A stretch of DNA of 64,000 nucleotides from Pseudomonadota bacterium (GCA_043815665.1 JBDRIT010000251.1:2818-66817); one strand, 5' to 3'; positions 5,570 to 42,475 are shown, counted from the stretch's first letter. Notes: a model not told the origin generated them from the letters alone. Program-made: numbers and translations.

Positions 5570-8500
5570 ATGATGAGATTCGGATACCGGCAAGGAGTTG
5601 CGGCCCTGGTCCTCCTCTGCGTGTTCGCCTCGTGCAGCCCTGACAAGGCCGACCGGGACCCTGGGACGGACGCGGATCGTGGGGATCTGCCGGGAGTCTT
5701 CGAGGTGGTCATCGGTGGCGACGGCGTTCCTGATCATGGGAGTTCGGACACCGGCGTAGTTCCTGGAATGGACACGCCGGGCTGGCCGGACGTTGCACCG
5801 GACTGCCAGGCCGGGGTTGGCGGCTTCGGGTGTCCGTGTGACACGGACGACGAGTGCATCCACGGCTTCTGCTTCGAGACGCCGGAGGGTGAGGTCTGCA
5901 GCCAGACCTGTCTGACCGAGTGCCCGGACGGGTGGACCTGTGAGCTGGTTTGTGCGGGGGAGAGCTGCCAGTACGTCTGTGTGCCGCGGTTCCCCAGGCT
6001 CTGCCGGCCCTGCGCGTCCCATGAGGACTGCCAGGACGTCCTCGGAGGGGGGGACGACCTCTGTGTCTCTGCCGGATCGATGGACGCCGGCTCGTTCTGC
6101 GGTGGGGGATGCGACGGCGATGGGGGCTGCCCGGCCGGGTTCGTCTGCGTCCCGATCGGTGTGGATGCGGCGACTGGACAGTGCATCCTGGAGGCGGGGG
6201 AGTGCGGATGCACGGACTGGTACGCGGAGCAGGAGATCTGGACCCCATGCTCGAAGGAGAACGAGTGGGGAACCTGTGACGGTGTGCGGACCTGCGGCCC
6301 GGAGGGCCTGACCCCCTGTGACGCGCCCGCGCCGGTCGCGGAGGTGTGCAACCTGACGGACGACGACTGCAACGGCGCTGTGGACGACATTGCGGCGCAG
6401 ACCTGTGTGCTCGAGAACGAGTACGGCGGCACCGAGGGGCAGCTCGTCTGCATCGACGGCGAGGCGGTCTGCCTGCCGGACGAGGTCCCGGCCGCAGAGG
6501 TTTGCGACGGCCTGGACAACGACCTGGACGGAGCGACGGACGAGGGCTTCCCGGACACGGACGGCGACGAGGACGCGGACTGCGTGGACGGGGATGACGA
6601 CGACGACGGGATCACTGACGGGGAGGACGTCTGTCCCCTCCTGTCGAATCCTGACCAGGCGGACAACGACCTGGATACCTGGGGCGACGCGTGCGATCCG
6701 GACGACGACAACGACGGCATCGAAGACGGCGAGGACTGCGCACCGTTTCTCCCCTGGATCTACCCAGGCGCGATCGAGGTCTGCGACGGGTGGGACAACG
6801 ACTGCGACGACAAGATCGACGAGGGCTTCTCCGACGCGGACGACGACGGAACCCCGGACTGCCTGGAGACCGACGATGACGACGACGGGGTTCCGGACGA
6901 TGTCGATAATTGCCCGATCGTGGCCAACCCCGGCCAGGAGAACCTGGACGGGGACCAGACCGGGGACGCATGTGATCCGGACGTGGACGGAGACGGCGTG
7001 ATCAACGAAGCGGACCTGTGTCCCACGCTGCCGAATCCGGACCAGGCGGACTTCCCGGACTCCGACGGGATCGGAAACGCATGTGATGACGATGACGACG
7101 GTGATGGCGTGACGGACGACGAGGACAACTGTCCCCTGGAGAGCAACCCCGGCCAGGGGGACATGGACGGGGACGGCCTCGGGGATGCCTGCGAGGCTGA
7201 CATGGACGGGGACGGGATCGCGGACGGCGCGGACAACTGCCCGGAGGTCCCGAACCCGACCCAGGTGGACGCGGATGGGGACTGGATCGGGGACGCGTGC
7301 GACGCGGACGCGGACAACGACGGGATCCCGGACGATGGGGACAACTGTCCCCTGGTGTTCAACCCTGGCCAGCTCAACAACGACACGGACCCCTGGGGGG
7401 ATGCTTGCGACGACGACGACGACGATGACGGCTACCCGGATCCCTTCGACAACTGCCCCCTGACGGACAACCCCCTCCAGACCAATATGGACAACGACGC
7501 CTGGGGCAACGCGTGTGACGATGACGACGACAACGACGGGGTGCCGGACGGGGAAGACAACTGTCCGTGGATCCCGAACCCGAACCAGGCGGACGCGAAC
7601 AACGACGGCACCGGGGACGCCTGCTCGGGAGACATGGACGGCGACGGCGTGCCCGACGGGCAGGACAACTGCTCGGACGTCCCGAACCCTGACCAGGCCG
7701 ATGCGGACGGCGATGTCCTCGGGGATGCGTGCGACAAGGACGACGACGACGATGGCGTCCCCGACACCGAAGACAACTGTCAGCTGGTCCCGAACGGGCC
7801 CGGCATCGCCCCCCCGCAGGGGGACCAGGGCGACACGGACGGGGACGGCCAGGGGGACGCGTGCGACGCGGATGACGACAACGACGGCGTCCTGGACGAG
7901 GTGGACAATTGCCCATTCGACGCCAACCCGGACCAGACCGATCTCGACGATGACCTGCTCGGAAACGCGTGCGACAAAGACGACGACAACGACGGGCTCA
8001 AGGACGGCGTAGACAACTGCCCCTTCGTGCCGAACCCCGGCCAGGAAGACGAGGACGGGGACGGCATCGGCGACGCGTGCGACGGGGACGCGGACGGCGA
8101 CGGGGTGCCGGACGAGTCTGACAACTGCTTGTGGGTCCCGAACCCCACCCAGGACAACAACGACGGTGACGGTGCCGGGGACGCGTGCGATGACGACGAC
8201 GACAACGACGGCGTCATCGCCGACGCGGACAACTGCCCCTTCGGGCCGAATCCCGGCCAGGAGAACTCGGACACGGACGGGATCGGCGACGCGTGCGACG
8301 ACGACCTGGACAACGACGGCGTGCCGGATGCCTCCGACAACTGCCCGTGGGTCGCGAATCCGCTCCAGGCTGACACGGACGGGGACGGCCTGGGGAACAC
8401 CTGCGACGATGACGACGATGGCGACCTGATCCCGGACGTGGTGGACAACTGCGTCCTCACCTTTAACCCATACCAGGAGGACGCGGACGGGGACGGAATC

Positions 8501-11095: not shown

Positions 11096-14000
11096 GTAAT
11101 ATAATACAAAAGACGCAGGGCGGCTCCGTCCAACGGTCGGTCTCCCGCGGGCTCGACCCCAAGTCGGCATCGCCCTGGCCTGGACAGCGACTCTTCGTTG
11201 CTTTGATGCTGCTGTCATGGGTTGGATGCATGAGGCCGATATCACCGGACAATGAGATCACCTCGGATTCAATTGGATTCGACACCATCCTTGAGGCTGG
11301 TATACCGGATTTCGCCATGCTTGATTGCGGGATTCCGGATGCCTATTCGGAGATGGAATTCCCAATCGATGCCCTGTCCGAGCACAACGAGGGACAGGAT
11401 TTCTTTGCAGCCGACGGTTTGCCTCTCGAGTGCCCGGGCGGCTTTCGCTGCCCCTGTGACGTCAATGATGAGTGCGACAGTGGATACTGTGTGGAAACAC
11501 CGGACGGGAAGCGCTGTACCCGGATCTGCATGGAGGGCTGTCCCCCGGCCCACCTCTGCATGACCGTGGAAGAAACCTGCCCGGACTGCGTGCAGATCTG
11601 TGTGCCCGCGTTTCCGGAGCTCTGCCGGCCCTGCTCCAATGACGCGGAGTGCGGGTCCATGATCCAGGACCTGGACAACCGGTGCCTCCCCCTCGGCGGG
11701 CCGGAACAGGGGAGCTTCTGCGGCGGGGACTGCTCCGGTGCAGCGACCTGCCCTGATGGCCACTCCTGCGTCGAGGTGGAGGCGCTGGCGGGGAACCTGG
11801 TGCAGCAATGCGTTCCTGACGATGCCACTTGCGAATGTACCGGAAAGTACATCGAGGAGGGCGCCTCGACCTCCTGCCAGCAGGTGAACGAGCACGGGGC
11901 CTGCCCGGGGCAGAGGGTGTGTGTAGCGGACGGCCTGAGCCCCTGCGACGCGCCCGCTGCCGAGGCCGAGATCTGCGACGCGTTCGACAACGACTGTTCG
12001 GGCGTCGTGGACGACGTCTCGCCGAAGGTGTGCGTCCTCGATAACGTCTACGGCGCCTGCGAAGGACACACCGAGTGCACCGGCGGTCAGGAGATCTGCG
12101 TCGGCAAGGTCCCGACCGGCGAAGCCTGCGATCTTCTGGACAACGACTGCGACGGCGAGACCGACGAGGTCTGCGCGGACCTGGACGGGGACGGCACGCC
12201 GGATCTCCTGGATCCGGATGACGACGGCGACGGGATCCCGGAGGACGGTGGCGGGAGCGGGATCGACGGTGACGCCCCCTGCGACGACGGCCAGACGGCA
12301 GGCTGCGACGACAACTGCCCCGTCACTCCGAACGACGGGCAGGTGGACACGGACGGGGACGGGTTCGGGAACGCGTGTGACGGCGACGACGACAACGACG
12401 GGGATCCGGACGAGAGCGATTGTGCCTCCTTGGTTTCGAGCATCAGCGTGAACGGCTTCGAGGTCTGTAACGGGATCGACGACGACTGTGACGGGAAGGC
12501 GGATGAGGGCTTCGTCGATACGGACGTGGACGGCGTCGCGGACTGTGTGGACGAGGATACGGACGGGGACGACGTCCTCGACGGCATGGACAACTGCGCG
12601 GCGGTGTCGAACAAGGGTCAGGAGGACTTCGACGGGGATGGGGAGGGGGACGCTTGCGACCCGGACGCGGACGGGGACTTCGTGCTTGATACCATTGACA
12701 ACTGCCTGTTCTTTCTCGCCAACGCGCAGACCGACACCGACGACGACGGCCAGGGCGATCCCTGCGATCCGGACGACGACGGGGACGATGTCATGGATGT
12801 CGAGGACAACTGTCCCCTTGAGGAGAACCCCGAACAGGCGGACGAGGACCTGGACGGGTACGGCGATGTCTGCGACTTCGATCTGGATGGCGATAACATC
12901 GTCAACGCGGCAGACAACTGTCCCGGGGATACCAATTGGGATCAGGCGGACTTCGACGAGGACGGCCTCGGGGATCCCTGCGACCCGGACGCGGACGGCG
13001 ACGGCGCGCTGGACGGAACGGACAACTGCCCGATGCTGCCGAACCCGGGCCAGGAGGACTTCGAAGGGGACGGCCTCGGTGACCCCTGCGACTCGGACGA
13101 CGACAATGACCTGATCCCGGACGTGGTGGACAACTGCGTCTACCAGATCAACCCAAAGCAGGTGGACTCGGACTTCGACAACGAGGGGGACGAGTGCGAC
13201 GCCGATGACGACAACGACGGCGTGCTTGACGGGTCGGACAACTGCCCGACGGTCCCGAACCCGGACCAGGCGAATGCGAACGGGACCGGCCCCGGGGATG
13301 CGTGCGAGGGGGACGCAGACGGGGACGGGCTCCCCTTCGAGGATGACAACTGCCCACTGGTCTTCAATCCGGGCCAGGAGGACCTGGACGGGGACTCGTC
13401 GGGAGACGCATGCGACCCGGACGATGACGGGGACGAGGTGGCGGACGTCCTCGACAACTGCCCCCATACGCCCAACGGCTATGGCTGGGGCGGGGACGGG
13501 CAGACCGACACGGACGGGGATGGGGACGGGGATGCGTGCGACGACGACGACGACGACGACGGCGTGTCCGATGAAGAGGACAACTGTCCCGCGGTCAAGA
13601 ACTCCGATCAGGAGGACAATGAAGGAGACGGCCTGGGGGACGCATGCGATCCCGACGACGACGATGACGGCGTCAAGGACAACGCGGACAATTGTCCGGT
13701 GACCGGGAACCCGAACCAGGAGGACGTCGACGGGGACGGCCTCGGAGACGCGTGTGAGGATGATCCGGATGGGGATGGCATCCCGAATGAGATGGACAAC
13801 TGTCCGGAGACCTGGAACCCGGACCAGACCAACACTGATCTCATCTGGGAGAACCAACCGGGGAGTGGTGTGGTGGCCGACGCCCTGGGGGACGCGTGCG
13901 ACCCGGACGATGACAACGACGGCTGGGGCGATTTCCAGGACAACTGCCCTGTGGTCCCGAACCCGGCTCAGCAGAACCAGGACCAGGACGGCCTGGGGGA

Positions 14001-15438
14001 CGCGTGCGACCCGGATGATGACAACGACGGGATCCCGGACGTGTCGGACGTCTGCGTATGGATCCCGGACCCGGAGCAGCAGGATCTCGACGGGGACGGT
14101 CTGGGGGATGCATGTGATCCGGACGACGACGACGACGGCTGGGGCGACCTCCAGGACAACTGCCCGTTCACGTGGAACCCGGAGCAGATTGACCTGGACG
14201 GCGATGGTACTGGCGATGCCTGCGAGTGGGATCCGGACAACGACGGTGTCGGCGGTGACGTGGACAACTGCCCCTTGACTCCGAACTCGGGGCAGAAGGA
14301 CACTGACGGCGACGGTGTTGGTGATGCCTGCCAGGAGGACGACGACGCGGACGGCCTCGCGGACGACGTTGACAACTGCCCCTTGGCCGAAAACCCGGAG
14401 CAGGACGATCTGGATGGCGACGGGCTCGGCGATCTCTGCGACATCGATCGCGACGGGGACGGCCTCTCGAATGATTTCGACAACTGTCCGGATCTCATCA
14501 ACGGGGAGCAGGCAGATACCGATAGCGACGGCTTCGGAAACATGTGTGACGCGGACGACGACGACGACGGGGTCGAGGATGCCGTGGACAATTGCCCTCT
14601 CGTGAAAAACTCCGACCAGGAGAACCTGGACGGCGATGCATTGGGGGATGCCTGCGATCCGGATGACGACGGGGACTCGATCCCGAGTTTGCTGGACAAC
14701 TGCCCCGACACCACGAACCCCGACCAGATGGACCTCGACGGCGATGGAGCAGGGGACCTCTGCGACGACGATGATGATGGAGATGGTTCAGAGGACGTAT
14801 CCGACAATTGCCCGACCACCCCGAACCCCGGGCAGGAGGACCTGGACGACGACGGGGCGGGGAACCACTGCGACGATGACGACGACGGGGACGGGGTCTC
14901 GGATCTCGTGGACAACTGTCCCTGGACGCCAGGCGCCGACCAGTCGGACCTGGACGGCGACGGGCTGGGAGATGCGTGCGACGCGGACGATGACAATGAC
15001 GGGTTCCCGGACGTTGAAGACAACTGCCCGGAGACGGCGAACTGGAGCCAGGGGGACCTGGACGGCGACGGAATGGGCGACGGATGCGATCCGGATGACG
15101 ACGGGGACGGTGACCCGGATGTGACAGACTGCATGCCGCAGGAGCCGACGGTCCATCACGACGCGGCCGAGGTGTGCAATGGGCAGGACGACGACTGCGA
15201 CCAGTTCATTGATGAGGCAGGAGCAGGCGGCTGCACGACTTGGTGGAAAGATATCGACGCGGATGGATATGGAGTTTCGGGTGACACGATGTGCCGCTGT
15301 TCCAAGTTCTTTCCCTACACAGCGACCCAAGACGGGGACTGCGACGACTTCGACCCCTGGATGCATCCGGGTGCACCTGAAGTCTGTGGCAACTTCAAAG
15401 ACGATGATTGTGACCAGTCCGCAGACGAGGGGTGTTGA
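11086..15438 (+). CDS. Giant lipoprotein paralog (~1450 aa): signal with lipobox, N-terminal Cys-rich module, TSP3 repeat array, MopE-like repeats.
   Basis: Start chosen at ATG 11086 (MPVSNIIQKTQ...RLFVALMLLSWVGC). This gives a charged n-region plus a hydrophobic core ending in Cys. It overlaps the stop of the previous gene by 10 nt, which suggests translational coupling. The long ORF technically opens at 11014. Alternative starts are GTG 11092 or ATG 11206. Same conserved N-module (GFRCPCDVNDECDSGYC...AFPELCRPC...). Confidence 0.75.
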   Translation: MPVSNIIQKTQGGSVQRSVSRGLDPKSASPWPGQRLFVALMLLSWVGCMRPISPDNEITSDSIGFDTILEAGIPDFAMLDCGIPDAYSEMEFPIDALSEHNEGQDFFAADGLPLECPGGFRCPCDVNDECDSGYCVETPDGKRCTRICMEGCPPAHLCMTVEETCPDCVQICVPAFPELCRPCSNDAECGSMIQDLDNRCLPLGGPEQGSFCGGDCSGAATCPDGHSCVEVEALAGNLVQQCVPDDATCECTGKYIEEGASTSCQQVNEHGACPGQRVCVADGLSPCDAPAAEAEICDAFDNDCSGVVDDVSPKVCVLDNVYGACEGHTECTGGQEICVGKVPTGEACDLLDNDCDGETDEVCADLDGDGTPDLLDPDDDGDGIPEDGGGSGIDGDAPCDDGQTAGCDDNCPVTPNDGQVDTDGDGFGNACDGDDDNDGDPDESDCASLVSSISVNGFEVCNGIDDDCDGKADEGFVDTDVDGVADCVDEDTDGDDVLDGMDNCAAVSNKGQEDFDGDGEGDACDPDADGDFVLDTIDNCLFFLANAQTDTDDDGQGDPCDPDDDGDDVMDVEDNCPLEENPEQADEDLDGYGDVCDFDLDGDNIVNAADNCPGDTNWDQADFDEDGLGDPCDPDADGDGALDGTDNCPMLPNPGQEDFEGDGLGDPCDSDDDNDLIPDVVDNCVYQINPKQVDSDFDNEGDECDADDDNDGVLDGSDNCPTVPNPDQANANGTGPGDACEGDADGDGLPFEDDNCPLVFNPGQEDLDGDSSGDACDPDDDGDEVADVLDNCPHTPNGYGWGGDGQTDTDGDGDGDACDDDDDDDGVSDEEDNCPAVKNSDQEDNEGDGLGDACDPDDDDDGVKDNADNCPVTGNPNQEDVDGDGLGDACEDDPDGDGIPNEMDNCPETWNPDQTNTDLIWENQPGSGVVADALGDACDPDDDNDGWGDFQDNCPVVPNPAQQNQDQDGLGDACDPDDDNDGIPDVSDVCVWIPDPEQQDLDGDGLGDACDPDDDDDGWGDLQDNCPFTWNPEQIDLDGDGTGDACEWDPDNDGVGGDVDNCPLTPNSGQKDTDGDGVGDACQEDDDADGLADDVDNCPLAENPEQDDLDGDGLGDLCDIDRDGDGLSNDFDNCPDLINGEQADTDSDGFGNMCDADDDDDGVEDAVDNCPLVKNSDQENLDGDALGDACDPDDDGDSIPSLLDNCPDTTNPDQMDLDGDGAGDLCDDDDDGDGSEDVSDNCPTTPNPGQEDLDDDGAGNHCDDDDDGDGVSDLVDNCPWTPGADQSDLDGDGLGDACDADDDNDGFPDVEDNCPETANWSQGDLDGDGMGDGCDPDDDGDGDPDVTDCMPQEPTVHHDAAEVCNGQDDDCDQFIDEAGAGGCTTWWKDIDADGYGVSGDTMCRCSKFFPYTATQDGDCDDFDPWMHPGAPEVCGNFKDDDCDQSADEGC
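12180..15110 (+). repeat. Intragenic TSP3 repeat array in gene 11086..15438.
   Basis: Same motif periodicity. Approximate boundaries. Confidence 0.75.
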
Positions 15439-15459: not shown

Positions 15460-17850
15460 TTACGGTAGAATCCGGCCGACGATGGAGCCGCCGTCGCCGT
15501 CCTGGTTGTCGGAGCGCCAGAGGATGGCGTACTCCGCGCCGGGGAGGGGGACGATCACGGGGCTGCTCTGATCGCCGGCGAAGTAGATGTTGCCCAGGAA
15601 GTCGTGGCCGTCCGTCGTGAAGTTGGCGTTGTAGTGCTGGAACTTCACCGAGGAGGCGGCCTCGTCCTCGCCGATGGTCTTCCAGCCGGCGAGGAGGGTG
15701 TCGTCGCTGAGGTAGGCGAGGGCCGGAATGGACTGCTCGTTCGCGGTGATCACGTTGATCTTGAACTCTCCCGCCACCGGGCCGCCCAGGTTGTCGAACC
15801 GCTGCGCGTAGATCCCGTAGTTGGACCCGTCCTGGTTCAGGGAGCGCCACGCCACGACGAAGTTGCCCTGGCTGTCCGCTGTGACCGCGGGCTGGGACTG
15901 GACGTTGGCCGTGGTCGTGTTGACCTTGAAGGGCTGGCCCTGCTTGGTGCAGGTGGCGCTCAGTCGCTGCGCGTAGATGCCCCAGTTGTCCCCGTCCTCG
16001 TTCTTGGACTCCCATACCACGATGTATCGGGAGGGGCCCGCGGGCAGGGCGGCGACCGCGGGGCTCTGCTGATCACTGGCCGTCAGGGTGTTGACCACGA
16101 ACTCCGCCCCGAGGGGGTTGTCCGCGGCGCTGAAGCAGCGGGCGACCACGTCGTAGGTGGCGCCCGGGGTCTGCTCGAAGGAGGTCCAGACCAGCGCGAA
16201 CGCGCCGTCCGCGCCCTGGGTGCGGTCCACCGCGATGGACGGCTGGTACTGCTCGTAGTCGGTCACCTGGTTCGCCTGGGTCTCGTCCCCGTCGGGGGTG
16301 CCGTCCGCGGCGAAGCGGCGGAAGAAGACCCCCTCCACGTCACCGTCCTGGCCGAAGGACTCCCAGGCCACCACAAAGCCGCCGCCGCTGTCCGAGGCGA
16401 TCACGGGAGCGTTCTGCCAGCCCTCGAGGGTCTCGTTCATGGTGAACTCGCTCCCGATGGGCTCCCCGGCGGTGTCGAAGCGGCGGCCCTTGATGTCGAT
16501 GTCCGTGGCGCTGACCGCGCTCTCCCAGGTCACCACGTAGCCGTCGTCGGCCTGGTTCGTTGCCGCGGGCTCCGACTGGTCGTTCTCGGTCCCGGAGTTC
16601 TGGATGCGCTCCTCGCTGTCGGTCAGGGCCTCCCCGTTCGCGTCGTACTTGCGGGCATAGACGTGGGCGTCGCTGCCGCGCCACCCGAGGACGGCCTCCT
16701 CGCTCTCGAGGACCTTGACCTTCACGTCGGTCTGGTTTCCGCTGGTGTTGACGTTGACCAGCTTCTCGTTGCCGATGGGCACCGCGTTCTTGGTGAAGAA
16801 CTGGGCGAAGATGCCCCGTCCCGAGGGATCCGCGCCTTCCCAGGCGACCACGAAGGAGCCCGCCAGGTCATACGCGCCCACGTCGGGGAGGGTCTCATTG
16901 CCGGAGTCGGAGGTGTTCACCGCTACCTCCACCGGAGAGACGGGGTTCCCGTCCTTCTTGAAGATCCGGGCCACGATGTCCTGGTCGCCGCCCGCGCTGG
17001 TCTCCCAGGCCACCACGAACCGTCCGTTGATGTAGGTGTCCACCGTGGGCCAGGTCTGGTTGCCTGCGGCGTTGGAGATGGTGATCTGGCTGCCGTCGGG
17101 GTCTCCGGTGGGGGTGTAGAGCTGGCCGAAGAGATCCGCGCCGTTGGACCAGATGATGATGATGCTGTCGTCGTTGTGCGCAGCCACGTCGAAGCCCTGC
17201 CAGTTGGAGCCCAGGGTCCCCCAGTCCTTGATCTTCGTCCCCGCGGCGTTGTAGATGTGGCCCATGATCGCCGCGCCCACCTGCCAGAGGATGACCGTGT
17301 TCCCGCCCGGTGTGGCCGCGACCGCGACGCGGCCGAAGGGGTTGGTGTAGGTGTACTGTGCCTGGGACGAGCATTGATAGGACCAGGAGGCGCTGTCGTT
17401 GTCCTCGTAGACGGTGACCTGCTTGGTCATCGAATCCAGGGTGTTGAACCAGCGCAGGTAGATCCGCTCCTCCCGGAGCTTCGAGCCCGAGTACTTGGTG
17501 AAGCTGTGGTGGTTGGAACTCGAGTAGGGATAGCAGTTCCCGCTCTGGCAGGCGCTGCTGCTGTTGTGGCAGGTCGCGCTGGTCTGGCTGAACGCGATCT
17601 TCCGGTGGACGAAACCGGCCACGTACGCTCCGGCGGTGAGCCCGTCCGCGTCCACCTCGAGATCGTCGATCCCGCCATCGTAGGACGTGTACTCGGTCCA
17701 CTCCTTGGACCAGGTGTCGGTGTAGCTGCGGGCGTAGTACCGGTCCTGGCTGCTGTCGTTCCAGAGGAGTGCGTAGCGTCCGTCGCCGTGGTCCGCGATG
17801 GCCGGCTTGAAGTTGTCCGCGGTGGTGTGGAAGGTCGAGACCTTGAATTC
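15460..17850 (-). repeat. About 13 tandem ~55-aa repeats of unknown type forming the C-terminal 800 aa of gene 15460..21493. Consensus roughly QxxPxVAxxxxGxFVVAWxSxxQDGxxxGIFAQRFxxxGxPxGxEFxVNTxT.
   Basis: Repeated segments such as QSQPAVTADSQGNFVVAWRSLNQDGSNYGIYAQRFDNLGGPVAGEFKINVIT, QQSPAVAALPAGPSRYIVVWESKNEDGDNWGIYAQRL and GRFVVAWETSAGGDQDIVARIF are read directly from the translation. Confidence 0.7.
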
Positions 17851-20800
17851 GCCGCAGACGTTGTCCGTTCCGGTGCAGACGCCGTTCTGGCAGGTGTCGC
17901 CCATGGTGCAGGAGTCCCCGTCGTTGCAGGTCGTCCCGTTGACCTTGGGCTGGGGGATGCAGGCGTCCGCGTCGTCGTTGCAGAGGCCGTTGTTGCATGC
18001 GTCGACGACGCCGGTGCAGGGGTTCGCCCCCCCGCCGGTGCACCAGCCGCCGCCGTCGCAGGTGTCGTTCACGGAGCAGAACTGCCCGTCCTCGCAGGTG
18101 GTGCCCGCGGGCTTGAACTCGGAGTCGCAGGAGAACCCGTCGGGGTTGGACGCGCCCTCGGGGACGCAGATCCCGATGATGCACGCGGAGGAGAGCCACG
18201 AGCAGTCCGCCGGCTCCCCCGGCTCGCAGGACCCGTCGGTGCACTGGTCGCCGAAGGTGCAGCCGTTGTCGTCCGCGTTGCAGGGGGTGCCGTTGGCCAC
18301 GGGGTCCCCCTCGCACTGGTCGGTGGCCTCGTTGCAGACCCCCTCGATGCAGCCGCCGGAGACCTCCTGGCAGTCGATGGGGGCACCCCCGACGCAGGTG
18401 CCGCTGCTGTTGCAGGTGTCCCCGCCGGTGCAGAACTGGCCGTCCTGGCACGGGGTCCCCGCCTGGAGGGGCACCAGATCGCACTTGTAGGACTGGACGC
18501 CGGTGGAGGTGCAGACCGCGGAGTTGCAGTCATTGCCCTGGCCCGCGCAGTTGACCGGGATCCCGGCCACGCAGGCCCCGCCGACGCACTGATCACCTGT
18601 GGTGCAGCCGTTGTTGTCCGCGTTGCACGCGAAGCCGTTGTTCGCTGGCGTGGAGGAGCACTGGCCCGTCTGCAGGTTGCAGATGTCCTGGGTGCACTGG
18701 TTCCCGTCGTCGCAGTCCTCGTTGGAGAGGCAGCAGTTGGGGTTGCCCGAGCCCTCGCAGGTGCCGTCGACGCACGTGTCGTTCACGGTGCACTCGTTCC
18801 CGTCGTTGCAGGTGATCCCGTTGAGCGCGGTGTTGGCGCACTGGCCACCTGTGCAGGCGTCCGCGGTGCAGGGGTTGTCGTCGTCGCAGTCCGGCGCAGG
18901 GCCCGCCTGACAGGCCCCCGCGACGCAGGTGTCCCCGATGGTGCAGGGGTCGTCGTCGGTGCAGGGGCCGCCGACCGGGCTCCAGAGGCAGCCGGTGGCG
19001 GGAGCGCAGGTGTCCGAGGTGCAGGGGTTGCCATCGTTGCAGCTCTTCGGGCTTCCGGAGCAGGCCCCCGCTGTGCACGCGTCACCGTCCGTACAGGCGT
19101 TGCCGTCGTCGCAGGGGTTGGAGTTCAGCACGAACTTGCACCCGCTCAGCGGGTCGCAGGAGTCCGTGGTGCAGGGGTTGTAGTCGGTGCAGGTGAGCTG
19201 CCCCGTGCCTGCGCAGGAGCCCCCCTGACAGACGTCGCCGGTGGTGCAGGCATTGCCGTCGTTGCAGGGGGCCTGGTTGTAGGTGTACTTGCAGCCGTCA
19301 TTTTCATTGCAGAAGTCATTGGTGCAGGCGTTGAGGTCGTCGCACTCCAGGGTGCCCGTGCCCGCGCAGACACCGCTTGCGCAGTGGTCGCCGGTGGTGC
19401 AGGCGTTGCCGTCGTTGCAGGGGTTCTCGTTGTTGGTGAACTGACAGCCGACCGCGGGATCGCAGGAGTCGCTGGTGCAGGGGTTGTTGTCGTTGCAGGG
19501 CAAGGCCTGGCCGCCGACGCAGGCGCCGCCGTTGCAGGAGTCGCCGATGGTGCAGGCGTTGCCGTCGTCGCAGGGGTTGGCGTTGTAGTTGTGCTGGCAC
19601 TCGAGGGCGGGGTTGCAGACGTCGTCGGTGCAGGGGTTGCCGTCGGTGCAGTCCTTGCCCTGGCCGACGCATGCGCCGTCGACGCAGACGTCGTTCACCG
19701 TGCAGAGGTCCTCGTCGTCGCAGATCTCGCCCCCGTTCTTGGGCGCGACGCCGCAGGCTCCGGTGTCGGGGGTTGCAGGTGGCCTGCGCGCAGGTGGGGT
19801 CCGCATCCGGGGGCAGGTCGCAGTCGATGACCGACGCGGGATCCACCATGCACTTGTAGGGCAGGGAGATCTTGGAGCAGTAGAGGCTCCCGTTGCAGAC
19901 ATTGCCGTCGTCCAGGAGGAGGCAGTCCGTGTCCGCGTTGCAGTCACACGCGATGGCCTCGCCGCCGCAGACGCCGTTCCCACCGCAGATGTCGTTGATC
20001 GTGCAGGGGTTCCCGTCGTCGCAGGCCCCGGCGCCGTACGTGAAGGTGCAGCCCACCAGGGGATCACAGGAGTTGATGGTGCAGGGGTTCGCATCCTCGC
20101 AGTCGATGAACTCCCCGGTACACGCCCCGAACGCGCAGTGGTCGTTGGTCGTGCAGGGGTTGGCGTCGCTGCAGGGGGCGGCGTTGAAGACGTTCTGGCA
20201 GCCGAGGGCCGGATCGCAGACGTCATCGGTGCAGTAGTTGCCGTCGTCGCAGGAGCCCTCGTCCGTGGGGCCGTCGCAGTCGTTGTCCTTGCCGTCGCAG
20301 ATCTCCGCCGCGCCGGGGTGGATCGCTGCATCCAGGGGGGCGCAGTCCGCTGCATCGCCCACGCCGTCGTTGTCGTCATCGGGGTCGCACGCGTTGCCCT
20401 GGCCGTCCAGATCGGTGTCCAGGGTGTCCGGGTTGGCCATGAGGGGGCAGTTGTCCATGGCGTCGGGGATCCCGTCACCATCGTCGTCGTCGTCGATGCA
20501 GTCCCGCTGCCCGTCGTCGTCGGTGTCCGTGTAGCCCTCGTCGGTGAACCCGTTGCAGTTGTTGTCCTTGCCGTCGCAGATCTCGGGCTCCGGCGAGGCC
20601 CCCTGGCAGATCTCATCGCCGAGGGAGCAGGCCTTGGTGCCGGGGCAGGTCCCATACTCGCTGGTGACCAGGCACTCCGCTGCGGTGATGTCGTCGATCG
20701 CGCCGTTGCAGTCATCGTCCAGGCTGTTGCAGGTCTCTGTGGCCGGGCTCGGCGCGTCGCAGGCGGTGAGGCCCGTGGGGCCGCAGTAGCGCTCTCCGGC

Positions 20801-21493
20801 GCAGGTGCCGGCGTCGTTGGACTCCGCGCACTCCGTGGTGAGCTGCAGGAACTTGGAGAGCGCGGTGCACTGGCAGGCGCCCTCGGTCAGCCGGCACTGC
20901 TTGACGCTGGTGCCGTCCGGGGCCTCCGCGGTGACGCAGCCGTAGCCCGCGGGGCAGGTGTCGTCGCTGCAGTCGGCGCCGCAGAAGCTCCCGGCGTCTC
21001 CATAATCCAGGCAGAGGTCTACGCTCCCGCCCAGGATCGGCTGACACTCCGCGTGGTCCACGCAGGGCTGGCAGACCTTGTCGAACCGCGGCAGGCAGAG
21101 GTAGGTCACGTCCGGGGGCGTGGTGCTGACCGGCGCGCAGACGAAGTCGGCCGGGCACTCCTCCACGCAGGTCATGGTGCAGATCTTCTTCTCGCCGGTG
21201 AGGATGCAGTACCCGGAGTCACAGTCCTCCGGGTCGTCGCAGGGCCACCCGAATGCGCCGGGCTGGGGACCGCTGTCCCCGGCTCCGTCCGCGTACTGGT
21301 CCGGCTGGGCGTCGCCGGCGGGAGCGTCCGGCTCGCCGGCGTCATTGCCGATGATCGTGTCGCCGGTCGTGTCCTCCGGAGTCTCCGGGGTGTCCGTGGA
21401 GACCTTGCCCGCGCCGGTGCCGCACGCGGCCACGAGCAGGGCCGCCGCGGCCAGGGCGATGACGAGGGCGATGCGATTGAGATTCCGCAGCAT
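15460..21493 (-). CDS. Giant lipoprotein paralog (~2010 aa if read through) interrupted by a 1-nt frameshift near 19768..19772. Order of parts: lipoprotein signal, conserved N-module, a few TSP3 repeats, MopE-like motif, ~40 CxxCxxDxC-type Cys-rich repeats, then ~13 tandem ~55-aa repeats of unknown function.
   Basis: Two overlapping minus-strand ORFs (19316..21493 and 15460..20715) each contain sensible protein on one side and R/T/P-rich nonsense on the other. The sense portions join exactly at the G5 homopolymer (plus strand 19768-19772; C5 on the coding strand). Removing one base gives ...DPTCAQATCNPDTGACGVAPKNGGEICDDEDLC..., which is in register with the repeat motif. N-terminus MLRNLNRIALVIALAAAALLVAACG is a lipoprotein signal. 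Confidence 0.75.
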
Positions 21494-21530
21494 GGAGTCC
21501 TCCCGACAGGTGTCCGGTTTCTCGAGGCTG

Positions 21531-21570
21531 GTTGATTATAGAGAGATGGAACCTCTGGTTCCAGCGAAAC
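21531..21570 (-). promoter_or_regulatory. Candidate promoter/operator upstream of the frameshifted giant gene: perfect TATAAT (minus strand) and a 6-3-6 palindrome GGAACCtctGGTTCC immediately upstream.
   Basis: Minus-strand reading …cTGGAACcagagGTTCCatctctcTATAATcaacc… About 45 nt before the ATG, with GGGAGGA as SD. The -35 match is weak. Confidence 0.3.
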
Positions 21571-23550: not shown

Positions 23551-24870
23551 CTACAGGTACTGCTTGATCTCCCAGTCCGTCACGTGCTGACGGAAGGAGG
23601 CCCACTCCTCCTTCTTGATGCCGACGTACTTGGCCACCAGCTCCTGGCCGAGGACCTCGCGCAGGAAGGACGACTCCTCCACCGCCAGGATCGCGGAATC
23701 CATGTCGTCGGGGAGGCAGCGATAGCCCTTGGCCTCGCGCTCCACGGGGGTGAGGAGGTCCGTGTTCTCCTTGAACTCCGGCGGGGCGACCAGGCCCCGC
23801 TCGATGCCGTCGAGCCCCGACGCGAGCTGGAGCCCCACCAGCAGGTAGGGGTTGGCCATGGGGTCCGCCGCCCGGTACTCGAAGCGGCAGCGATGGGGCT
23901 GGTCCGGGGCGAACGCGGGGACCCGGATCAGCGCCAGGCGGTTCTGGATTCCCCAGGTCAGGAACGCGGGGGCCTCGTGGCCCGGTACGAGGCGCTTGTA
24001 GGAGTTCACGGTCTGGTTCGTGAAGAGGGTGATCTCCTGCGCGTGATCCAGGAGCCCGGCGATGTACTGCATCCCGGTCTCCGAGATGAGGTTCCGCGTG
24101 GTGCGGCCGTAGTCGTAGAACGCGTTCTCGTCGCCCCTCCACAGGATCTGGTGGACGTGGAGGCCCGAGCCGATGAGGTCGCTCATGGGCTTGGGCATGA
24201 AGGACGCGTGCATGCCGTGCTTCTGGGCGACGGTATCCACGAGGACCTTGGACAGGAGGAGGTTGTCGCATTGCCGGAGGGCGTCCTCCAGGCGGAACTC
24301 GATCTCGTGCTGGCCGGGGCCGTTCTCGTGGTGGAAGACCCGGATCCCCATGCCCACGTCCTCGAGGAGCTCCGCGGTCTCCTGGAGGGCCCGGGTGCTC
24401 GGGTCGGCCCTTGGGGCCTCGAAGTAGCCGCCTTGATCGGTGGGATTCGGGGCCGTGCGATCCTTGAAGTAGTAGTACTCCAGCTCCGTGAGGATGTCGA
24501 AGCGGGTGAAGCCCATCCCGCGGGACGTCTCGACGGTGCGGCGCAGGAAGGACCGGGAGTCCAGCGCCTGGCCGGAGCCGTCGGGCCGATGCACGTCGCA
24601 GAACAGGATCGCCGCGGCTGGGATCCCGGCGCCCCCCTGGACGATCCGGAAGCTGTCCAGGTCGGGCATCGCAGCGAGGTCGGAGCGATCCACCCGGGAC
24701 ATGCCTGCGACGGAGGAGCCGTCCAGGGGCGCGCCGTTGTCCAGGACGCGGTCCAGGCCGGACGCGGGGACGTGGGTCACCCGCGGCCGCCCGAAGAGGT
24801 CGATGAGCCAGAACTGGATTGTCCGCAGCCCGTGATCCTTGATGGCTTTGGCGATGTCCTTGCGATCCAT
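23551..24870 (-). CDS. Glutamine synthetase family protein (type I-like gamma-glutamyl:amine ligase, 439 aa).
   Basis: N-terminal GS beta-grasp region (MDRKDIAKAIKDHGLRTIQFWLIDLFGRPR) and a GS catalytic domain are recognisable by eye. The size fits GlnA / GlnT / PuuA-like enzymes; the exact substrate cannot be assigned from sequence. Confidence 0.8.
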   Translation of the reverse strand: MDRKDIAKAIKDHGLRTIQFWLIDLFGRPRVTHVPASGLDRVLDNGAPLDGSSVAGMSRVDRSDLAAMPDLDSFRIVQGGAGIPAAAILFCDVHRPDGSGQALDSRSFLRRTVETSRGMGFTRFDILTELEYYYFKDRTAPNPTDQGGYFEAPRADPSTRALQETAELLEDVGMGIRVFHHENGPGQHEIEFRLEDALRQCDNLLLSKVLVDTVAQKHGMHASFMPKPMSDLIGSGLHVHQILWRGDENAFYDYGRTTRNLISETGMQYIAGLLDHAQEITLFTNQTVNSYKRLVPGHEAPAFLTWGIQNRLALIRVPAFAPDQPHRCRFEYRAADPMANPYLLVGLQLASGLDGIERGLVAPPEFKENTDLLTPVEREAKGYRCLPDDMDSAILAVEESSFLREVLGQELVAKYVGIKKEEWASFRQHVTDWEIKQYL

Positions 24871-25061
24871 GGTGCCTCCCGCCCCGCCCCGCCCGAGCCG
24901 GGTGGTGTCGGCCAGAGTGGATCGGGGGGGGGCGTGATGTCAAGCACGCGCGGGGGCGGACCGAGCGCAAACTCAGGGTGATGACGTGGGGCGAGCGCGA
25001 TGTGCACGGATGTCTCCGGCTCTGGTACAATCCCTGGGACTTGTCCTCGCAGAGGTGCCAC

Positions 25062-28046
25062 GTGAGAGATCTTGCTATACTCCTTCTCATCCTCTCCTTC
25101 GCTGCCTGCAACGATGCCGCCACCGACGGCGGCGACGCCTCCGGCGGGCTTGACCTTCCGAACGTCGAGGACACGGGCGGGGTGGACTTCACCTTCGTCG
25201 ATCTCACCTCCGACGGCGTCACGCCGGACCTGCCCCCTCCGGACGGGACCATCGACGACATCGTGTCGGTCTGCGAGCCCGGGGAGGGCTGCTTCCTCGA
25301 CCCCTGCGTCGAGAACGGGGAGTGCCAGTCCGGGTGGTGCGTGGACCACATGGGGGACGGGGTCTGCACGACCGCGTGCGCCGAGGAATGTCCCGCCGGC
25401 TGGTCCTGTCAGCAGGTCGCCGGCACGGATCCGGACGTGGTCTTCATCTGCGTGTCCCATATCGCCAACCTCTGCCGTCCCTGCGCGGACGCGGGGGACT
25501 GTCTGGCCACTGGTGGCGTGGAGGACGTCTGCGTCGACTACGCGGCCGAGGGCAGCTTCTGCGGGGCGCCCTGCGATCCCGACGACGTCAAGTCCACCTG
25601 CCCCTGGGGCTTCTCCTGCCAGGAGGCCCTCACCGTGGACGGCATCCCCACGACCCAGTGCGTGGCGGACGCGGGGATCTGCCCCTGCACGGCCAAGGCC
25701 GTCACCCTGGCCCTGTGGACCCCCTGCGCGGTGGAGAACGAGTGGGGCCAATGCGGAGGAAAGCGGGTCTGCACCGGGGAGGGCCTCACCCCCTGCGACG
25801 CGACGGACCCCGCTGCGGAGCTCTGCAACGCCCTCGATGACGACTGCGACGGGGAGGTGGACGAACCCAACGTGATCGACGGCGGGTACCAGGACCTCTG
25901 CGACGACGGCAACGGGTGCACCGAGGATGGCTGCGACGGCGCCGCTGGATGCACCCACGCGGCCCTCACCGGGGGGGAGTGCGTGGACGGCGACGTGTGC
26001 ACCGTCGGGGATCACTGCGAGGCGGGGATCTGCCTGGGCTCGCCGGTGGCCTGCGACGACGGCAACCCCTGCACCGATGACCAGTGCGACGGGCTCGGAG
26101 GCTGTGTCTTCCTGGCCAACGACGTGGCCTGCAACGACGGCGATTCCTGTACCGTCGCCGACCAGTGCGACGAGGCGGTCTGCGCCGGCGTCCCGGTGAG
26201 CTGCGATTGCCAGGCTGATGCGGACTGCGCCGGGCTCGAGGACGGAGATCTCTGCAACGGCACCCTGGTCTGCGACACCGGGGCGCTCCCCTTCCAGTGC
26301 GAGGTGGCTCCCGACACCGTGGTGACCTGCCCCGCTCCGCCCCCGGGGCCGGGGCAGACCTGCCTGGCGGCGGCCTGCGACCCGGAGGACGGGACCTGCG
26401 GGCTGGTCCCCGCCAGCGAGGGGTTCCTCTGTGACGACGGGGATCCCTGCACCGTGGGTGAGGCTTGCGTCGAGGGGGCCTGCGCCGACGGGGTGGCGCC
26501 CAACTGCAATGACGGCAACCCCTGCACCGACGACGGGTGCGCGGCCCCCGGGGGGTGCGTCCACGTCCCCAACGACCTGCCGTGCAGTGACGGCGACGTC
26601 TGCACCCTCGATGATCACTGCTCAGATGGACTGTGCGTCGGCGGGTCCATGTTGGGTTGCGACGACGGCGATCCGTGCACCGTGGACCTCTGCGATGTCG
26701 CGGTGGGGTGCCAGCACGAGCCCTCGGATGGCGACCTGTGCAACGACGGCAACGCCTGCACAATCGGGGATCACTGCGTCGCGGGAGCCTGCGTCTTCGG
26801 CCTCGTGGCGGTGTGCGACGACGGGAACCTCTGCACCACCGACAGCTGCAGTCCCCAGACGGGGTGCGTCTACACCTTGAACACCGCTCCCTGTGACGAC
26901 GGTGACCTCTGTACCGTCGGGGATCACTGTCATCTCGGCGGATGCATCGCGAGCGGTGCGCTGAGCTGTGATGACGGCAACGTCTGCACCGACGACGCCT
27001 GCCTCGCCGCGACGGGCTGTGCCTTCTCACCCAACGCTGCGGCCTGTGACGACGGCGATCCCTGCACCCAGGGGGACCACTGCGCCGGCGGCTGGTGCCT
27101 GTCCACCACCAAGGACTGCGACGACGACAACCCCTGCACCGACGACGCCTGCGGCTCCGCCGGATGCACCAACACCCCCAACGCGGACCCCTGCCCCGGC
27201 GGCCTCTGCGCGGGGGGCGTCTGTGTCTGCCAGCCGGCCTGCGCCGGGAAGGACTGCGGGGACGACGGCTGCGGCGGGTCCTGCGGCGTCTGCACGGGGC
27301 AGGATCTCTGCCTGGCGGGCCACTGCCAGTGCCAGCCGGCCTGCGACGGCAAGAACTGCGGAGGCGACGGCTGCGGCGGGTCCTGCGGCGTCTGCACGGG
27401 TCAGGACCTCTGCGTGGTGGGTCTCTGCCAGTGCCAGCCGGATTGCCTCGGGCTCGACTGCGGGGAGGACGGCTGCGGTGGCCTCTGCGGTACCTGCCAG
27501 GGCGGCGACACGTGCGTGGCCGGAGCCTGCGTCGGGGCCATCGGGAAGCGGGTCTTCGTGACGAGCACCCTGACCTCAGCGGGCCTGGGCGGGGTCTCAG
27601 GTGCGGACTCCTATTGCCAGTCACGGGCTGGCGCCGCGGGGCTCGGCGGCTCCTGGCGGGCCTGGGTGAGCCTCTCCGGAAGCCCGGTCACGAGCCGGTT
27701 CAACCACGCGTCCGTGCCCTACAAGCTCCTGGACGGCGCAGTGATCGCGAGCAACTGGGCCGACCTCACCGACGGGACCCTCCAGCACGCCATCGACCGG
27801 GACGAGAACGGCGGCGCCGTGGGCTCGGGATACATCTGGACCGCGACCAAGCCCAACGGATCCTACAACTCCGACAGCTGGGGCGGCTGCGGTGGCACCC
27901 TGTGCGGCGGCTGGACCATCGGCGGGACCTGCAACTCCGGGAGCGGCGGCTTCGGCGGTGACTCCGGTAAGGTCGACGCCCAGTGGACCGACACGGTGTG
28001 CGGCTGCTGCAACAACCAGTGGCGTCTCTACTGCTTCGAACAATAG
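25062..28046 (+). CDS. Cys-rich lipoprotein paralog (~995 aa). Order of parts: lipoprotein signal, conserved N-module, ~25 CxxCxxDxC-type repeats, three CxPxCxGKxCGxDGCGGxCGxC modules, C-terminal endostatin-like / DUF1554-like domain.
   Basis: GTG 25062 gives VRDLAILLLILSFAAC (lipobox), preceded by AGAGG. The long ORF's ATG at 24978 would add 28 non-signal residues. The C-terminus reads KRVFVTS...GADSYCQSRAGAAGLGGSWRAWVS...PYKLLDGAVIASNWADL...YCFEQ. This matches the endostatin (collagen XVIII NC1) signature [24 protein letters not shown]...IVNLKDELLFPSWEAL. Confidence 0.8.
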   Translation: MRDLAILLLILSFAACNDAATDGGDASGGLDLPNVEDTGGVDFTFVDLTSDGVTPDLPPPDGTIDDIVSVCEPGEGCFLDPCVENGECQSGWCVDHMGDGVCTTACAEECPAGWSCQQVAGTDPDVVFICVSHIANLCRPCADAGDCLATGGVEDVCVDYAAEGSFCGAPCDPDDVKSTCPWGFSCQEALTVDGIPTTQCVADAGICPCTAKAVTLALWTPCAVENEWGQCGGKRVCTGEGLTPCDATDPAAELCNALDDDCDGEVDEPNVIDGGYQDLCDDGNGCTEDGCDGAAGCTHAALTGGECVDGDVCTVGDHCEAGICLGSPVACDDGNPCTDDQCDGLGGCVFLANDVACNDGDSCTVADQCDEAVCAGVPVSCDCQADADCAGLEDGDLCNGTLVCDTGALPFQCEVAPDTVVTCPAPPPGPGQTCLAAACDPEDGTCGLVPASEGFLCDDGDPCTVGEACVEGACADGVAPNCNDGNPCTDDGCAAPGGCVHVPNDLPCSDGDVCTLDDHCSDGLCVGGSMLGCDDGDPCTVDLCDVAVGCQHEPSDGDLCNDGNACTIGDHCVAGACVFGLVAVCDDGNLCTTDSCSPQTGCVYTLNTAPCDDGDLCTVGDHCHLGGCIASGALSCDDGNVCTDDACLAATGCAFSPNAAACDDGDPCTQGDHCAGGWCLSTTKDCDDDNPCTDDACGSAGCTNTPNADPCPGGLCAGGVCVCQPACAGKDCGDDGCGGSCGVCTGQDLCLAGHCQCQPACDGKNCGGDGCGGSCGVCTGQDLCVVGLCQCQPDCLGLDCGEDGCGGLCGTCQGGDTCVAGACVGAIGKRVFVTSTLTSAGLGGVSGADSYCQSRAGAAGLGGSWRAWVSLSGSPVTSRFNHASVPYKLLDGAVIASNWADLTDGTLQHAIDRDENGGAVGSGYIWTATKPNGSYNSDSWGGCGGTLCGGWTIGGTCNSGSGGFGGDSGKVDAQWTDTVCGCCNNQWRLYCFEQ

Positions 28047-37858: not shown

Positions 37859-37876
37859 CTCTCTCCTCCTTGCGGT

Positions 37877-39322: not shown

Positions 39323-39323
39323 C

Positions 39324-41920: not shown

Positions 41921-41923
41921 CTC

Positions 41924-42475
41924 TCAATCCTCCACGTCGGTCCCGCCCTCTCGCCGGGTCAGCTGCGCGAGGCGAGACCTCGCTCGTTGCACTGCGCGCT
42001 TGACCCAGTTCCGGTCCACGCCCAGGTGCCGCGCGGTGCTCTCCTGGGTTCGGCGATCGAGCAGGGTCATCAGCACCGCGCTGCGTTCCCGTTCACTCAA
42101 CGATTCGAGCACCTTCTCCACGAGCTCCGCCGCCTCCAGCTGCATCTCCGGCCCCTGCGTGGCGGCCTCCGGTGCGTCGCCGGAGTGCATTCGCGCCGTC
42201 TGCCGCAGGCTCGTCCGGGTCACGTTCCTCGCGATCGCCACGAGATACGTGAAGTACTTGACGGACCCGCTGTAGGCGTCGCGCTGCCGTGGGCTGAACG
42301 CCAGGCAGAACGTCTCCGAGAGCACGTCCATCAGATCAAATCGGCTCAACCGATACCGTGCGACCAGGAACCGCACCAGGTCGTCACGGTAGGTCGAGAA
42401 GACGAGCTCGAGCACCTCCTTGTCCCCTGATCTGAATCGAGACAGCAGATCAGGTCGTTCCCGGAACAGGGACAT
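41924..42475 (-). CDS. ECF-type RNA polymerase sigma-70 family factor.
   Basis: Region 2 (…VLSETFCLAFSPRQRD…YLVAIARNVTRT) and region 4 HTH (…ERERSAVLMTLLDRRTQESTARHLGVDRNWVKRAVQRARSRL). 183 aa. Confidence 0.9.
   Translation of the reverse strand: MSLFRERPDLLSRFRSGDKEVLELVFSTYRDDLVRFLVARYRLSRFDLMDVLSETFCLAFSPRQRDAYSGSVKYFTYLVAIARNVTRTSLRQTARMHSGDAPEAATQGPEMQLEAAELVEKVLESLSERERSAVLMTLLDRRTQESTARHLGVDRNWVKRAVQRARSRLAQLTRREGGTDVED

What the first reader, a model, noticed from the sequence alone, without database searches (positions are those of the whole stretch)
19755..19785. Single-base frameshift in a G5/C5 homopolymer splits a ~2010-aa lipoprotein gene
Two large overlapping minus-strand ORFs carry the N- and C-terminal parts of one paralog. 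Deleting one base of the ggggg run at 19768..19772 restores …CAQATCNPDTGACGVAPKNGGEICDDEDLC…, perfectly in register with the surrounding Cys-rich repeat. Three explanations are possible: a sequencing/assembly error in a homopolymer, a genuine pseudogenisation, or a slippage-prone contingency site. The third is the most interesting. A surface lipoprotein with a homopolymeric tract would be a classic phase-variation arrangement.
Basis: seen in the sequence. Interest (0 to 1): 0.6.

Follow-up and report, generated by a model that had tools for sequence, protein, structure and literature searches.

The report
One-base frameshift in giant lipoprotein gene
One extra C in a short run of Cs breaks an otherwise intact 2010-residue surface lipoprotein gene; it looks like an ordinary recent mutation or an assembly error, not a phase-variation switch.

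Summary
A G5 run at 19768-19772 (C5 on the coding minus strand) separates two overlapping minus-strand ORFs. Removing one base gives a single 2010-aa ORF (21493->15460) with a lipoprotein signal. Its junction, CAQATCNP|DTGACGV, aligns without a gap to 13 intact homologues of about 2000 aa.

The closest homologue has C4 at this site and an intact frame, so the lesion is a +1 C insertion.

The contingency-locus reading is not supported:
- The tract is 5 bases (4 when the gene is intact). [quoted passage not shown]
- G5 matches in the window are fewer than chance predicts (296 against 482 expected).
- The gene has 22 other runs of exactly 5 and three longer ones, all in frame. Housekeeping genes have the same density.
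- Four more distant orthologues have no run at this site.

Nothing else in the window is frameshifted. The part downstream of the shift shows no decay: dN/dS is 0.37 there and 0.43 upstream.

The lesion is therefore either a very young null allele of one member of a redundant paralogue family (about 0.48) or a consensus error (about 0.40). Only reads can decide, and no sequence from the same species could be found. Interest is low.

The parts
19768..19772 (-). C5 run on the coding strand (G5 on +). It holds one base more than the frame allows. It comprises the third base of AAC (N574), CCC (P575) and one extra C.
   Evidence: The closest orthologue, L081/P0001, reads gaC CCC Gac (C4) with an intact frame.
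19769..21493 (-). 5' part of the gene, codons 1-575. It contains a signal peptide with lipobox (residues 1-24, 21493-21422), a conserved N-terminal module shared with paralogues, thrombospondin type-3 Ca-binding repeats (residues about 309-391), and the first Cys-rich CTDC-like repeats.
   Evidence: Collinear with P0001-P0012.
15460..19767 (-). 3' part of the gene, codons 576-2010 plus the stop. It lies in the +1 frame relative to the 5' part. It holds Cys-rich repeats to about residue 1240, then a repeat-rich domain of about 770 aa with no Pfam or PDB sequence match.
   Evidence: GC3 > 0.9 and no stop over 1435 codons. dN/dS 0.37 against P0001.
19316..19768 (-). Out-of-frame tail that the sequence as written adds to the truncated product. 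It is 150 Arg-rich residues (RHRSLRRRAQERG...) followed by a stop at 19318-19316.
21499..21540 (-). Intact expression signals upstream of ATG 21493. TATAAT sits at 21540-21535. GGGAGG sits at 21504-21499, 5 nt before the start codon.
   Evidence: read by eye. No experimental support.

Best explanation
A single C was inserted into an ordinary C4 run (aaC-CCC-Gac, coding for Asn-Pro-Asp) of a conserved 2010-aa Cys-rich surface lipoprotein gene. The result is a plain, unprogrammed frameshift. I take it to be a genuine and very recent loss-of-function allele, a young pseudogene, of one member of a large redundant paralogue family. As written, the gene would yield a 725-aa lipoprotein fragment: 575 native residues plus a 150-residue nonsense tail. 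The remaining 1435 codons have no signal peptide and would not be exported. Shown: the lesion, its exact position, the intact ancestral state and the absence of any other damage. Inferred: that the extra base exists in the cells and not only in the assembly, and that losing this gene is tolerated because paralogues remain.
For: - **Ancestral state.** Thirteen homologues of 1977-2202 aa are intact and align across the junction with no gap; all keep the spacing C-x-[P/S]-x-T-G-x-C.
- **Direction of the change.** The closest homologue (77% aa identity in global alignment) has C4 at this site, so the change is C4 -> C5.
- **Clean assembly elsewhere.** The Pfam domains that hit in pepF, glnA, two Mur ligases, pheS, pheT, a GT4 glycosyltransferase, a methyltransferase, a histidine kinase, a sigma-54 activator and a radical-SAM gene are nearly all matched end to end within a single ORF, so none of these genes looks split.
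- **Large genes intact.** The six other giant genes are each one ORF in one GC3 phase.
- **Longer runs spared.** All 38 G/C runs of >=6 (up to C8) that lie inside ORFs are in frame. A technology whose errors grow with homopolymer length would be expected to fail there first.
- **Redundancy.** At least four paralogues in the window share the N-terminal module of about 416 aa, so loss of one copy is plausible.
Against: Nothing in the sequence separates a real extra base from a consensus error. There is no second lesion. dN/dS downstream of the shift (0.37) is no higher than upstream (0.43). The promoter-like box, the Shine-Dalgarno sequence and the start codon are intact. The relatives are all metagenome-derived assemblies, so the source may be a MAG with modest coverage. 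No reads and no sequence from the same species were available. Real indels also favour longer runs, so the argument that a short run was hit while long runs were spared is weak.
Confidence: 0.48

Rival explanations
1. Sequencing or assembly artefact. The organism has C4 and an intact 2010-aa gene, and the fifth base is a consensus indel error in a GC-rich homopolymer.
For: - The gene looks fully functional apart from this one base: perfect collinearity with intact homologues, GC3 > 0.9 on both sides, no decay downstream and intact expression signals.
- The gene makes up about 10% of the coding sequence in the window. The giant Cys-rich genes together make up about 60%. A random error would therefore often land in one of them.
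- Gene-fragmenting homopolymer indels are a recognised error class in long-read assemblies (PMC12007338, abstract seen).
- All relatives found are MAG or metagenome contigs.
Against: It would be the only such error in 64 kb. It would fall in a run of true length 4, while 38 runs of 6-8 inside ORFs are all read in frame. The housekeeping genes show no split domains. The technology and the coverage are unknown.
Confidence: 0.4
2. Contingency locus. The tract is a slippage-prone switch that turns this surface lipoprotein ON (G4) and OFF (G5) reversibly at high frequency.
For: The tract is a G/C homopolymer inside the ORF of a predicted surface lipoprotein, and the gene belongs to a multi-paralogue family. 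That is the general architecture of translational phase variation. The present state is OFF, and one slippage step would restore it.
Against: - **Length.** 4/5 bases is below every working cut-off: >=7 G/C in PhasomeIt for Campylobacter, which the authors say may already include tracts too stable for switching (PMC6321876), and >=9 for Neisseria (PMC5953494).
- **Frequency.** GGGGG matches in the window number 296 against 482 +/- 29 expected.
- **Same gene.** It contains 22 other runs of exactly 5, two of 6 and one of 7, all in frame. The intact orthologue L081 has 27 runs of 5.
- **Density.** Runs of >=5 occur at 3.5-4.4 per kb in this gene and at 1-8 per kb in housekeeping genes.
- **Conservation.** The homologous codons in other orthologues are ctG CCG Gct, aaT CCG Agt, aaC AGT Gag and agC CCG Ctc, so the run is not conserved.
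Confidence: 0.04
3. Translational recoding. The ribosome shifts +1 on CCC-C (tRNA-Pro re-pairs one base downstream, helped by the minor codon CGA in the A site), so some or all full-length protein is still made from the G5 sequence.
For: In the zero frame the site reads AAC CCC CGA. CCC-N is an established +1 slippery proline codon (PMC7577736). CGA is a minor Arg codon here, at 7.8% of Arg codons. A +1 shift at exactly this codon would restore the native sequence ...CNP-DTGAC...
Against: No orthologue has the frameshift; all 13 are encoded in a single frame. A dedicated recoding signal should be conserved. No Shine-Dalgarno-like stimulator is seen in the bases just upstream. CGA is uncommon but not rare. 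At most this predicts a low level of leaky suppression. It is not a designed mechanism.
Confidence: 0.03
4. Gene fission. The two ORFs are now two separately expressed functional genes.
For: Both ORFs are long and have strong coding statistics.
Against: The ATG of the downstream ORF (20715) lies 950 nt inside out-of-frame sequence that translates to low-complexity Ala/Thr/Arg/Pro-rich text. The native part starts only at 19767, without a signal peptide, yet it consists of Cys-rich repeats that match only an extracellular-type repeat family, PF00526. All homologues are single proteins.
Confidence: 0.02

Closest known systems
Frameshifted young pseudogenes, and gene-fragmenting indel errors, at short homopolymers
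   Same: A single-base indel in a mononucleotide run splits an otherwise intact ORF into two overlapping ORFs. Orthologues are intact and there are no secondary lesions.
   Different: Nothing distinguishes this case from that class. Only the size and family of the gene are unusual.
Phase-variable (contingency) genes driven by simple sequence repeats, for example poly-G/C tracts in Campylobacter jejuni and Neisseria surface-structure genes
   Same: An intragenic G/C homopolymer in a gene for a predicted surface protein, where a change of one base in length toggles the reading frame.
   Different: The tract is 4/5 bases instead of >=7-9. It is not conserved in orthologues. It is not over-represented and is no different from about 235 similar runs in the window, including those in housekeeping genes. 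No length variation was observed, and none could be tested.
+1 ribosomal frameshifting at CCC-N proline codons, and programmed +1 sites such as prfB
   Same: The zero-frame sequence CCC-CGA is a slippery proline codon followed by a minor codon. A +1 shift there would restore the native protein.
   Different: The shift is not conserved in any orthologue and no upstream stimulator is seen. The site was created by the lesion itself, so at most incidental leakiness is expected.
Cys-rich repeat lipoproteins of uncultured Myxococcota (Pfam PF00526 Dicty_CTDC repeats with thrombospondin type-3 repeats)
   Same: The repaired protein matches PF00526 (E 2.5e-20, 7 stretches) and the TSP type-3 repeats of COMP and thrombospondin (E 1.5e-24). 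Full-length homologues of about 2000 aa exist in metagenomes, and more distant relatives lie in Myxococcales MAGs.
   Different: This copy is interrupted. The function of the family is unknown, and the C-terminal domain of about 770 aa has no Pfam or PDB sequence match.

Membership tests
SSR-mediated phase-variable (contingency) locus | Repeat tract long enough to be hypermutable (poly-G/C >=7 in Campylobacter analyses, >=9 in Neisseria analyses) | tested here: not met
   The tract is G5, or G4 in the intact state. Cut-offs come from PMC6321876 and PMC5953494.
SSR-mediated phase-variable (contingency) locus | Tract length varies among reads, isolates or strains of the same species | not testable with these tools
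   No reads were available. No sequence from the same species was found: exact-protein look-ups gave nothing, the metagenome pattern scan gave 0 hits, and the best related loci had 39-59% identity.
SSR-mediated phase-variable (contingency) locus | Tract conserved at the site in orthologues, or over-represented relative to background | tested here: not met
   Orthologue codons at the site are C4 in L081 but CCG-type with no run in L161, L162, L163 and L082. GGGGG matches number 296 against 482 expected. Run density equals that of housekeeping genes.
SSR-mediated phase-variable (contingency) locus | The gene encodes a surface-exposed or surface-modifying product | tested here: met
   The N-terminal signal has the lipobox VAAC, judged by pattern only. 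Extracellular-type Cys-rich and TSP3 repeats are present.
Programmed +1 ribosomal frameshift | The frameshift is conserved among orthologues | tested here: not met
   All 13 close homologues are single-frame ORFs. DNA was read in five of them.
Programmed +1 ribosomal frameshift | A slippery P-site codon with a slow A-site codon and a stimulatory element | tested here: inconclusive
   CCC-CGA is present. CCC-N is known to be slippery (PMC7577736). CGA makes up 7.8% of Arg codons. No Shine-Dalgarno-like stimulator is seen upstream.
Frameshifted pseudogene | The ORF is disrupted relative to intact orthologues by an indel | tested here: met
Frameshifted pseudogene | The lesion is present in the organism's DNA, not only in the assembly | not testable with these tools
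   Requires reads or resequencing.
Frameshifted pseudogene | Signs of relaxed selection or further decay | tested here: not met
   No further stops or shifts occur in 1435 codons. dN/dS is 0.37 downstream and 0.43 upstream. If the lesion is real, it is very young.
Dicty_CTDC (PF00526) Cys-rich repeat protein | Score above the Pfam gathering threshold | tested here: met
   72.4 bits against a cut-off of 27, in 7 stretches.

The most novel reading that the evidence does not exclude
The C4/C5 run is a low-rate but biologically used ON/OFF site. The population would carry a stable mixture of intact and broken alleles of this gene, and perhaps of its paralogues. Many short G/C runs in a family of giant surface lipoproteins would then give Myxococcota a diffuse form of surface variation without dedicated long tracts. 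Incidental +1 slippage at CCC-C would keep the OFF allele slightly leaky.
Probability: 0.04. Interest if true: 0.5.

Novelty: already known. Interest (0 to 1): 0.1.

Why it matters
It matters little beyond annotation. If the base is an error, the gene should be annotated as one intact 2010-aa lipoprotein. If the base is real, it is one young pseudogene in a redundant family. The practical lesson concerns the scan. In a 68% GC genome, G5/C5 runs occur about every 270 bases and are even depleted relative to chance. A frameshift in such a run is therefore not evidence of phase variation. Tract length, conservation and enrichment must be checked first.

Tried and rejected
- **Search for the source genome or a sequence from the same species, to compare tract length.** All attempts failed.
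  - Exact-protein look-ups of the N-terminal ORF, glnA and pheS found nothing on record.
  - A degenerate DNA pattern for CAQATCNP-DTGACGV, allowing 0-2 extra bases, gave 0 hits in metagenome contigs.
  - The search for related loci in genome contigs gave at best 39-55% identity over long matches.
  - The search for related loci in metagenome contigs gave one true orthologue at 59%.
- **Search for other frameshifts in the window, as a sign of an error-prone assembly.**
  - GC3 phase scans flagged 21617-25408/23551-24939, 28117-29520/29262-30866, 37097-39394, 41054-42490, 43062-44836 and 46038-48390.
  - The Pfam domains found there are matched essentially end to end, and the stop-codon map is consistent with ordinary adjacent genes. 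None of these is a frameshift.
- **Test of relaxed selection downstream of the shift.** dN/dS against P0001 showed none. Power is low, because most of the divergence predates the lesion.
- **Significance of the G9 tract at 24924-24932.** One occurrence against 4.9 expected, so it is not significant.
- **PDB sequence search of the C-terminal 776 aa.** No match.
- **Not attempted.** Structure prediction, the representative-protein search and a taxonomic search with housekeeping proteins were left out as irrelevant to the question.

Full report
**1. The observation**

The + strand at 19760-19779 reads ccggtgtcGGGGGttgcagg, so the G5 run lies exactly at 19768-19772. Two minus-strand ORFs overlap here: 19316..21493 (725 aa) and 15460..20715 (1751 aa).

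The first ORF starts MLRNLNRIALVIALAAAALLVAAC..., a signal peptide with a lipobox-like VAAC. It reads native sequence up to ...DPTCAQATCNP and then turns into an Arg-rich nonsense tail. The second ORF is nonsense until ...ATP and then reads DTGACGVAPKNGGEICDDEDLC... to the end.

Deleting one G gives a single 2010-aa ORF with no internal stop. In coding orientation the site is TGC AAC CCC C GAC ACC GGA. N574 occupies 19774-19772, P575 occupies 19771-19769, there is one surplus C, and D576 begins at 19767.

Two independent checks agree. The codon position with >0.9 GC switches phase at this point, with strong coding signal on both sides. tblastn of the repaired protein against the window yields exactly two collinear segments in adjacent frames.

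**2. The gene and its ancestral state**

The repaired protein matches only Pfam PF00526 (Dicty_CTDC Cys-rich repeat; 72 bits, seven stretches). The N-terminal part contains thrombospondin type-3 calcium-binding repeats (COMP 3fby, E 1.5e-24) and a MopE-like motif. The last 776 residues match nothing in the PDB by sequence.

A search of the large protein collection returned intact homologues. P0002-P0012 are 1977-2025 aa, 57-62% identical, and cover 97-100% of the query. P0001 (2202 aa) is the closest, at 77% identity in a global alignment. It carries an internal duplication of one module.

All of them align across the junction without a gap and keep the spacing C-x-[P/S]-x-T-G-x-C. P0001, for example, reads CAEAICDPDTGLCSVAPKNGG. 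The single-ORF state is therefore ancestral and the norm.

DNA at the homologous site was read in five orthologues:

| Locus | Codons at the site | Run |
|---|---|---|
| L081 (P0001) | gaC CCC Gac | C4, intact frame |
| L161 | ctG CCG Gct | none |
| L162 | aaT CCG Agt | none |
| L163 | aaC AGT Gag | none |
| L082 | agC CCG Ctc | C3 |

The lesion is thus a +1 C insertion into an ordinary C4 run made by common codons. CCC is 48% of Pro codons here. The run itself is not a conserved feature of the family.

**3. The contingency-locus reading**

Four tests were possible, and all were negative.

- **Length.** The tract is 5 bases, or 4 when the gene is ON. Genome-wide surveys of phase variation use >=7 G/C for Campylobacter, and the authors note that even these may include tracts too stable for real switching (PMC6321876). 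They use >=9 for Neisseria, where G7 was judged too common to be informative (PMC5953494).
- **Frequency.** The window is 67.8% GC. It has 197 runs of exactly G5/C5 and 40 longer ones. GGGGG occurs 296 times on both strands against 482 +/- 29 in dinucleotide-preserving shuffles, so such runs are depleted.
- **Specificity.** The target gene contains 22 other runs of exactly 5, two of 6 and one of 7, all in frame. The intact orthologue L081 has 27 runs of 5. Run density is 3.5-4.4 per kb in the target and 1-8 per kb in pheS, pheT, Mur ligases, glnA and other housekeeping genes.
- **Conservation.** The run is absent in four of the five orthologues read.

The one defining property that could not be tested is length heterogeneity in reads or in strains of the same species.

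**4. Error or real mutation**

I looked for other frameshifts as a measure of assembly quality. GC3 phase scans flagged several same-strand ORF overlaps, but all resolved as ordinary adjacent genes.

- pepF (M3 peptidase), glnA, two Mur ligases, pheS, pheT, a GT4 glycosyltransferase, a methyltransferase, a histidine kinase, an ECF-type sigma factor, a sigma-54 activator and a radical-SAM/SPASM protein each keep their Pfam domains within a single ORF, and almost all of those domains are matched end to end.
- The region 37097-39394 is two ORFs in the same frame separated by one stop, with constant GC3 phase.
- The six other giant genes are each one ORF in one phase.
- All 38 G/C runs of >=6 that lie inside ORFs, up to C8, are in frame.

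The assembly is therefore clean at this scale, and its only frameshift sits in a run whose true length is 4. That argues mildly against a chemistry whose errors grow with homopolymer length.

On the other side, the gene carries no second lesion. Its TATAAT-like box, GGGAGG and ATG are intact. dN/dS against P0001 is 0.37 downstream of the shift and 0.43 upstream. It is thus indistinguishable from a working gene with one wrong base. All known relatives come from metagenome assemblies, where consensus errors are not rare. Gene-fragmenting indels are also a recognised artefact of long-read assemblies (PMC12007338).

Real spontaneous indels prefer homopolymers too, so the location does not discriminate. 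A real null allele is plausible because the gene is one of at least five paralogues in this window that share the N-terminal module of about 416 aa (2-5311, 5570-11095, 11014-15438 and 24978-28046, plus the target).

I put a genuine, very young frameshift allele at about 0.48 and an artefact at about 0.40. Only reads can separate the two.

**5. Minor alternatives**

- **Translational recoding.** In the zero frame the site reads CCC-CGA. CCC-N is a known +1 slippery proline codon (PMC7577736), and CGA is a minor Arg codon here at 7.8%. A +1 slip would restore the native protein, so the broken allele, if real, might be slightly leaky. No orthologue has the shift and no upstream stimulator is visible, so this is not programmed recoding (0.03).
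- **Gene fission.** This is implausible. The native part of the downstream ORF has no start codon or signal peptide of its own, and it consists of Cys-rich repeats of an extracellular type (0.02).

**6. Attempts to find independent copies**

- Exact-protein look-ups for the N-terminal ORF, glnA and pheS found nothing.
- A degenerate site-specific DNA pattern gave no hit in metagenome contigs.

The organism is therefore probably an uncultured member of Myxococcota that is not represented in these collections. This placement is inferred from the record titles of its relatives.

**7. Verdict**

The feature is an ordinary single-base frameshift of a kind already well known. Interest is low (0.1). 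The most novel reading still open is a low-rate, population-level ON/OFF polymorphism in a family of giant surface lipoproteins. I give it about 0.04.

Noticed in passing
window 24924-24932: A G9 run, the longest G/C homopolymer in the window. It lies in the intergenic region between glnA (23551-24870, -) and a paralogous Cys-rich lipoprotein gene (ORF 24978-28046 +, probable start GTG at 25062). By length it would pass the Neisseria poly-G cut-off, unlike the G5 of the finding. However, one G9 is fewer than the 4.9 expected from shuffles.
   Followed up: partly
window 2-5311 (+), 5570-11095 (+), 11014-15438 (+), 15460-21493 (-), 24978-28046 (+), 48472-55635 (-), 55951-60303 (-): Seven giant genes of 1000-2400 aa fill more than half of the 64 kb. 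Four of them share the N-terminal module of about 416 aa with the target gene (36-52% identity) but have different C-terminal parts. This looks like a modular paralogue family of unknown function in an uncultured Myxococcota-like genome.
   Followed up: partly
window 37097-39394 (-): Two minus-strand ORFs (37877-39394 and 37097-37876) lie in the same frame, separated by a single TGA at 37877-37879, and GC3 phase is constant across the boundary. They may be two abutting genes or one gene with an in-frame stop. Neither has a Pfam hit.
   Followed up: partly
window 15463-17790 (-): The C-terminal region of about 770 aa in the target protein is built of recurring ...FVVAW.S..QDG...G[IV][FY]AQR[FY]... 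units. It has no Pfam hit and no PDB sequence match, yet it is conserved in all full-length homologues. It is probably a repeat or propeller-like domain that has not been described.
   Followed up: no
L081 (P0001), residues about 690-880: The closest orthologue carries a tandem duplication of about 190 aa. The duplicated module includes the segment homologous to the frameshift site (CADAVCNQDTGGCDV is the second copy). The repeat region therefore changes by duplication of whole modules between close relatives.
   Followed up: no
window 42547-42555: A T9 run in an intergenic region, the only long A/T homopolymer in a 68% GC window. It may be part of a terminator. It was not examined.
   Followed up: no
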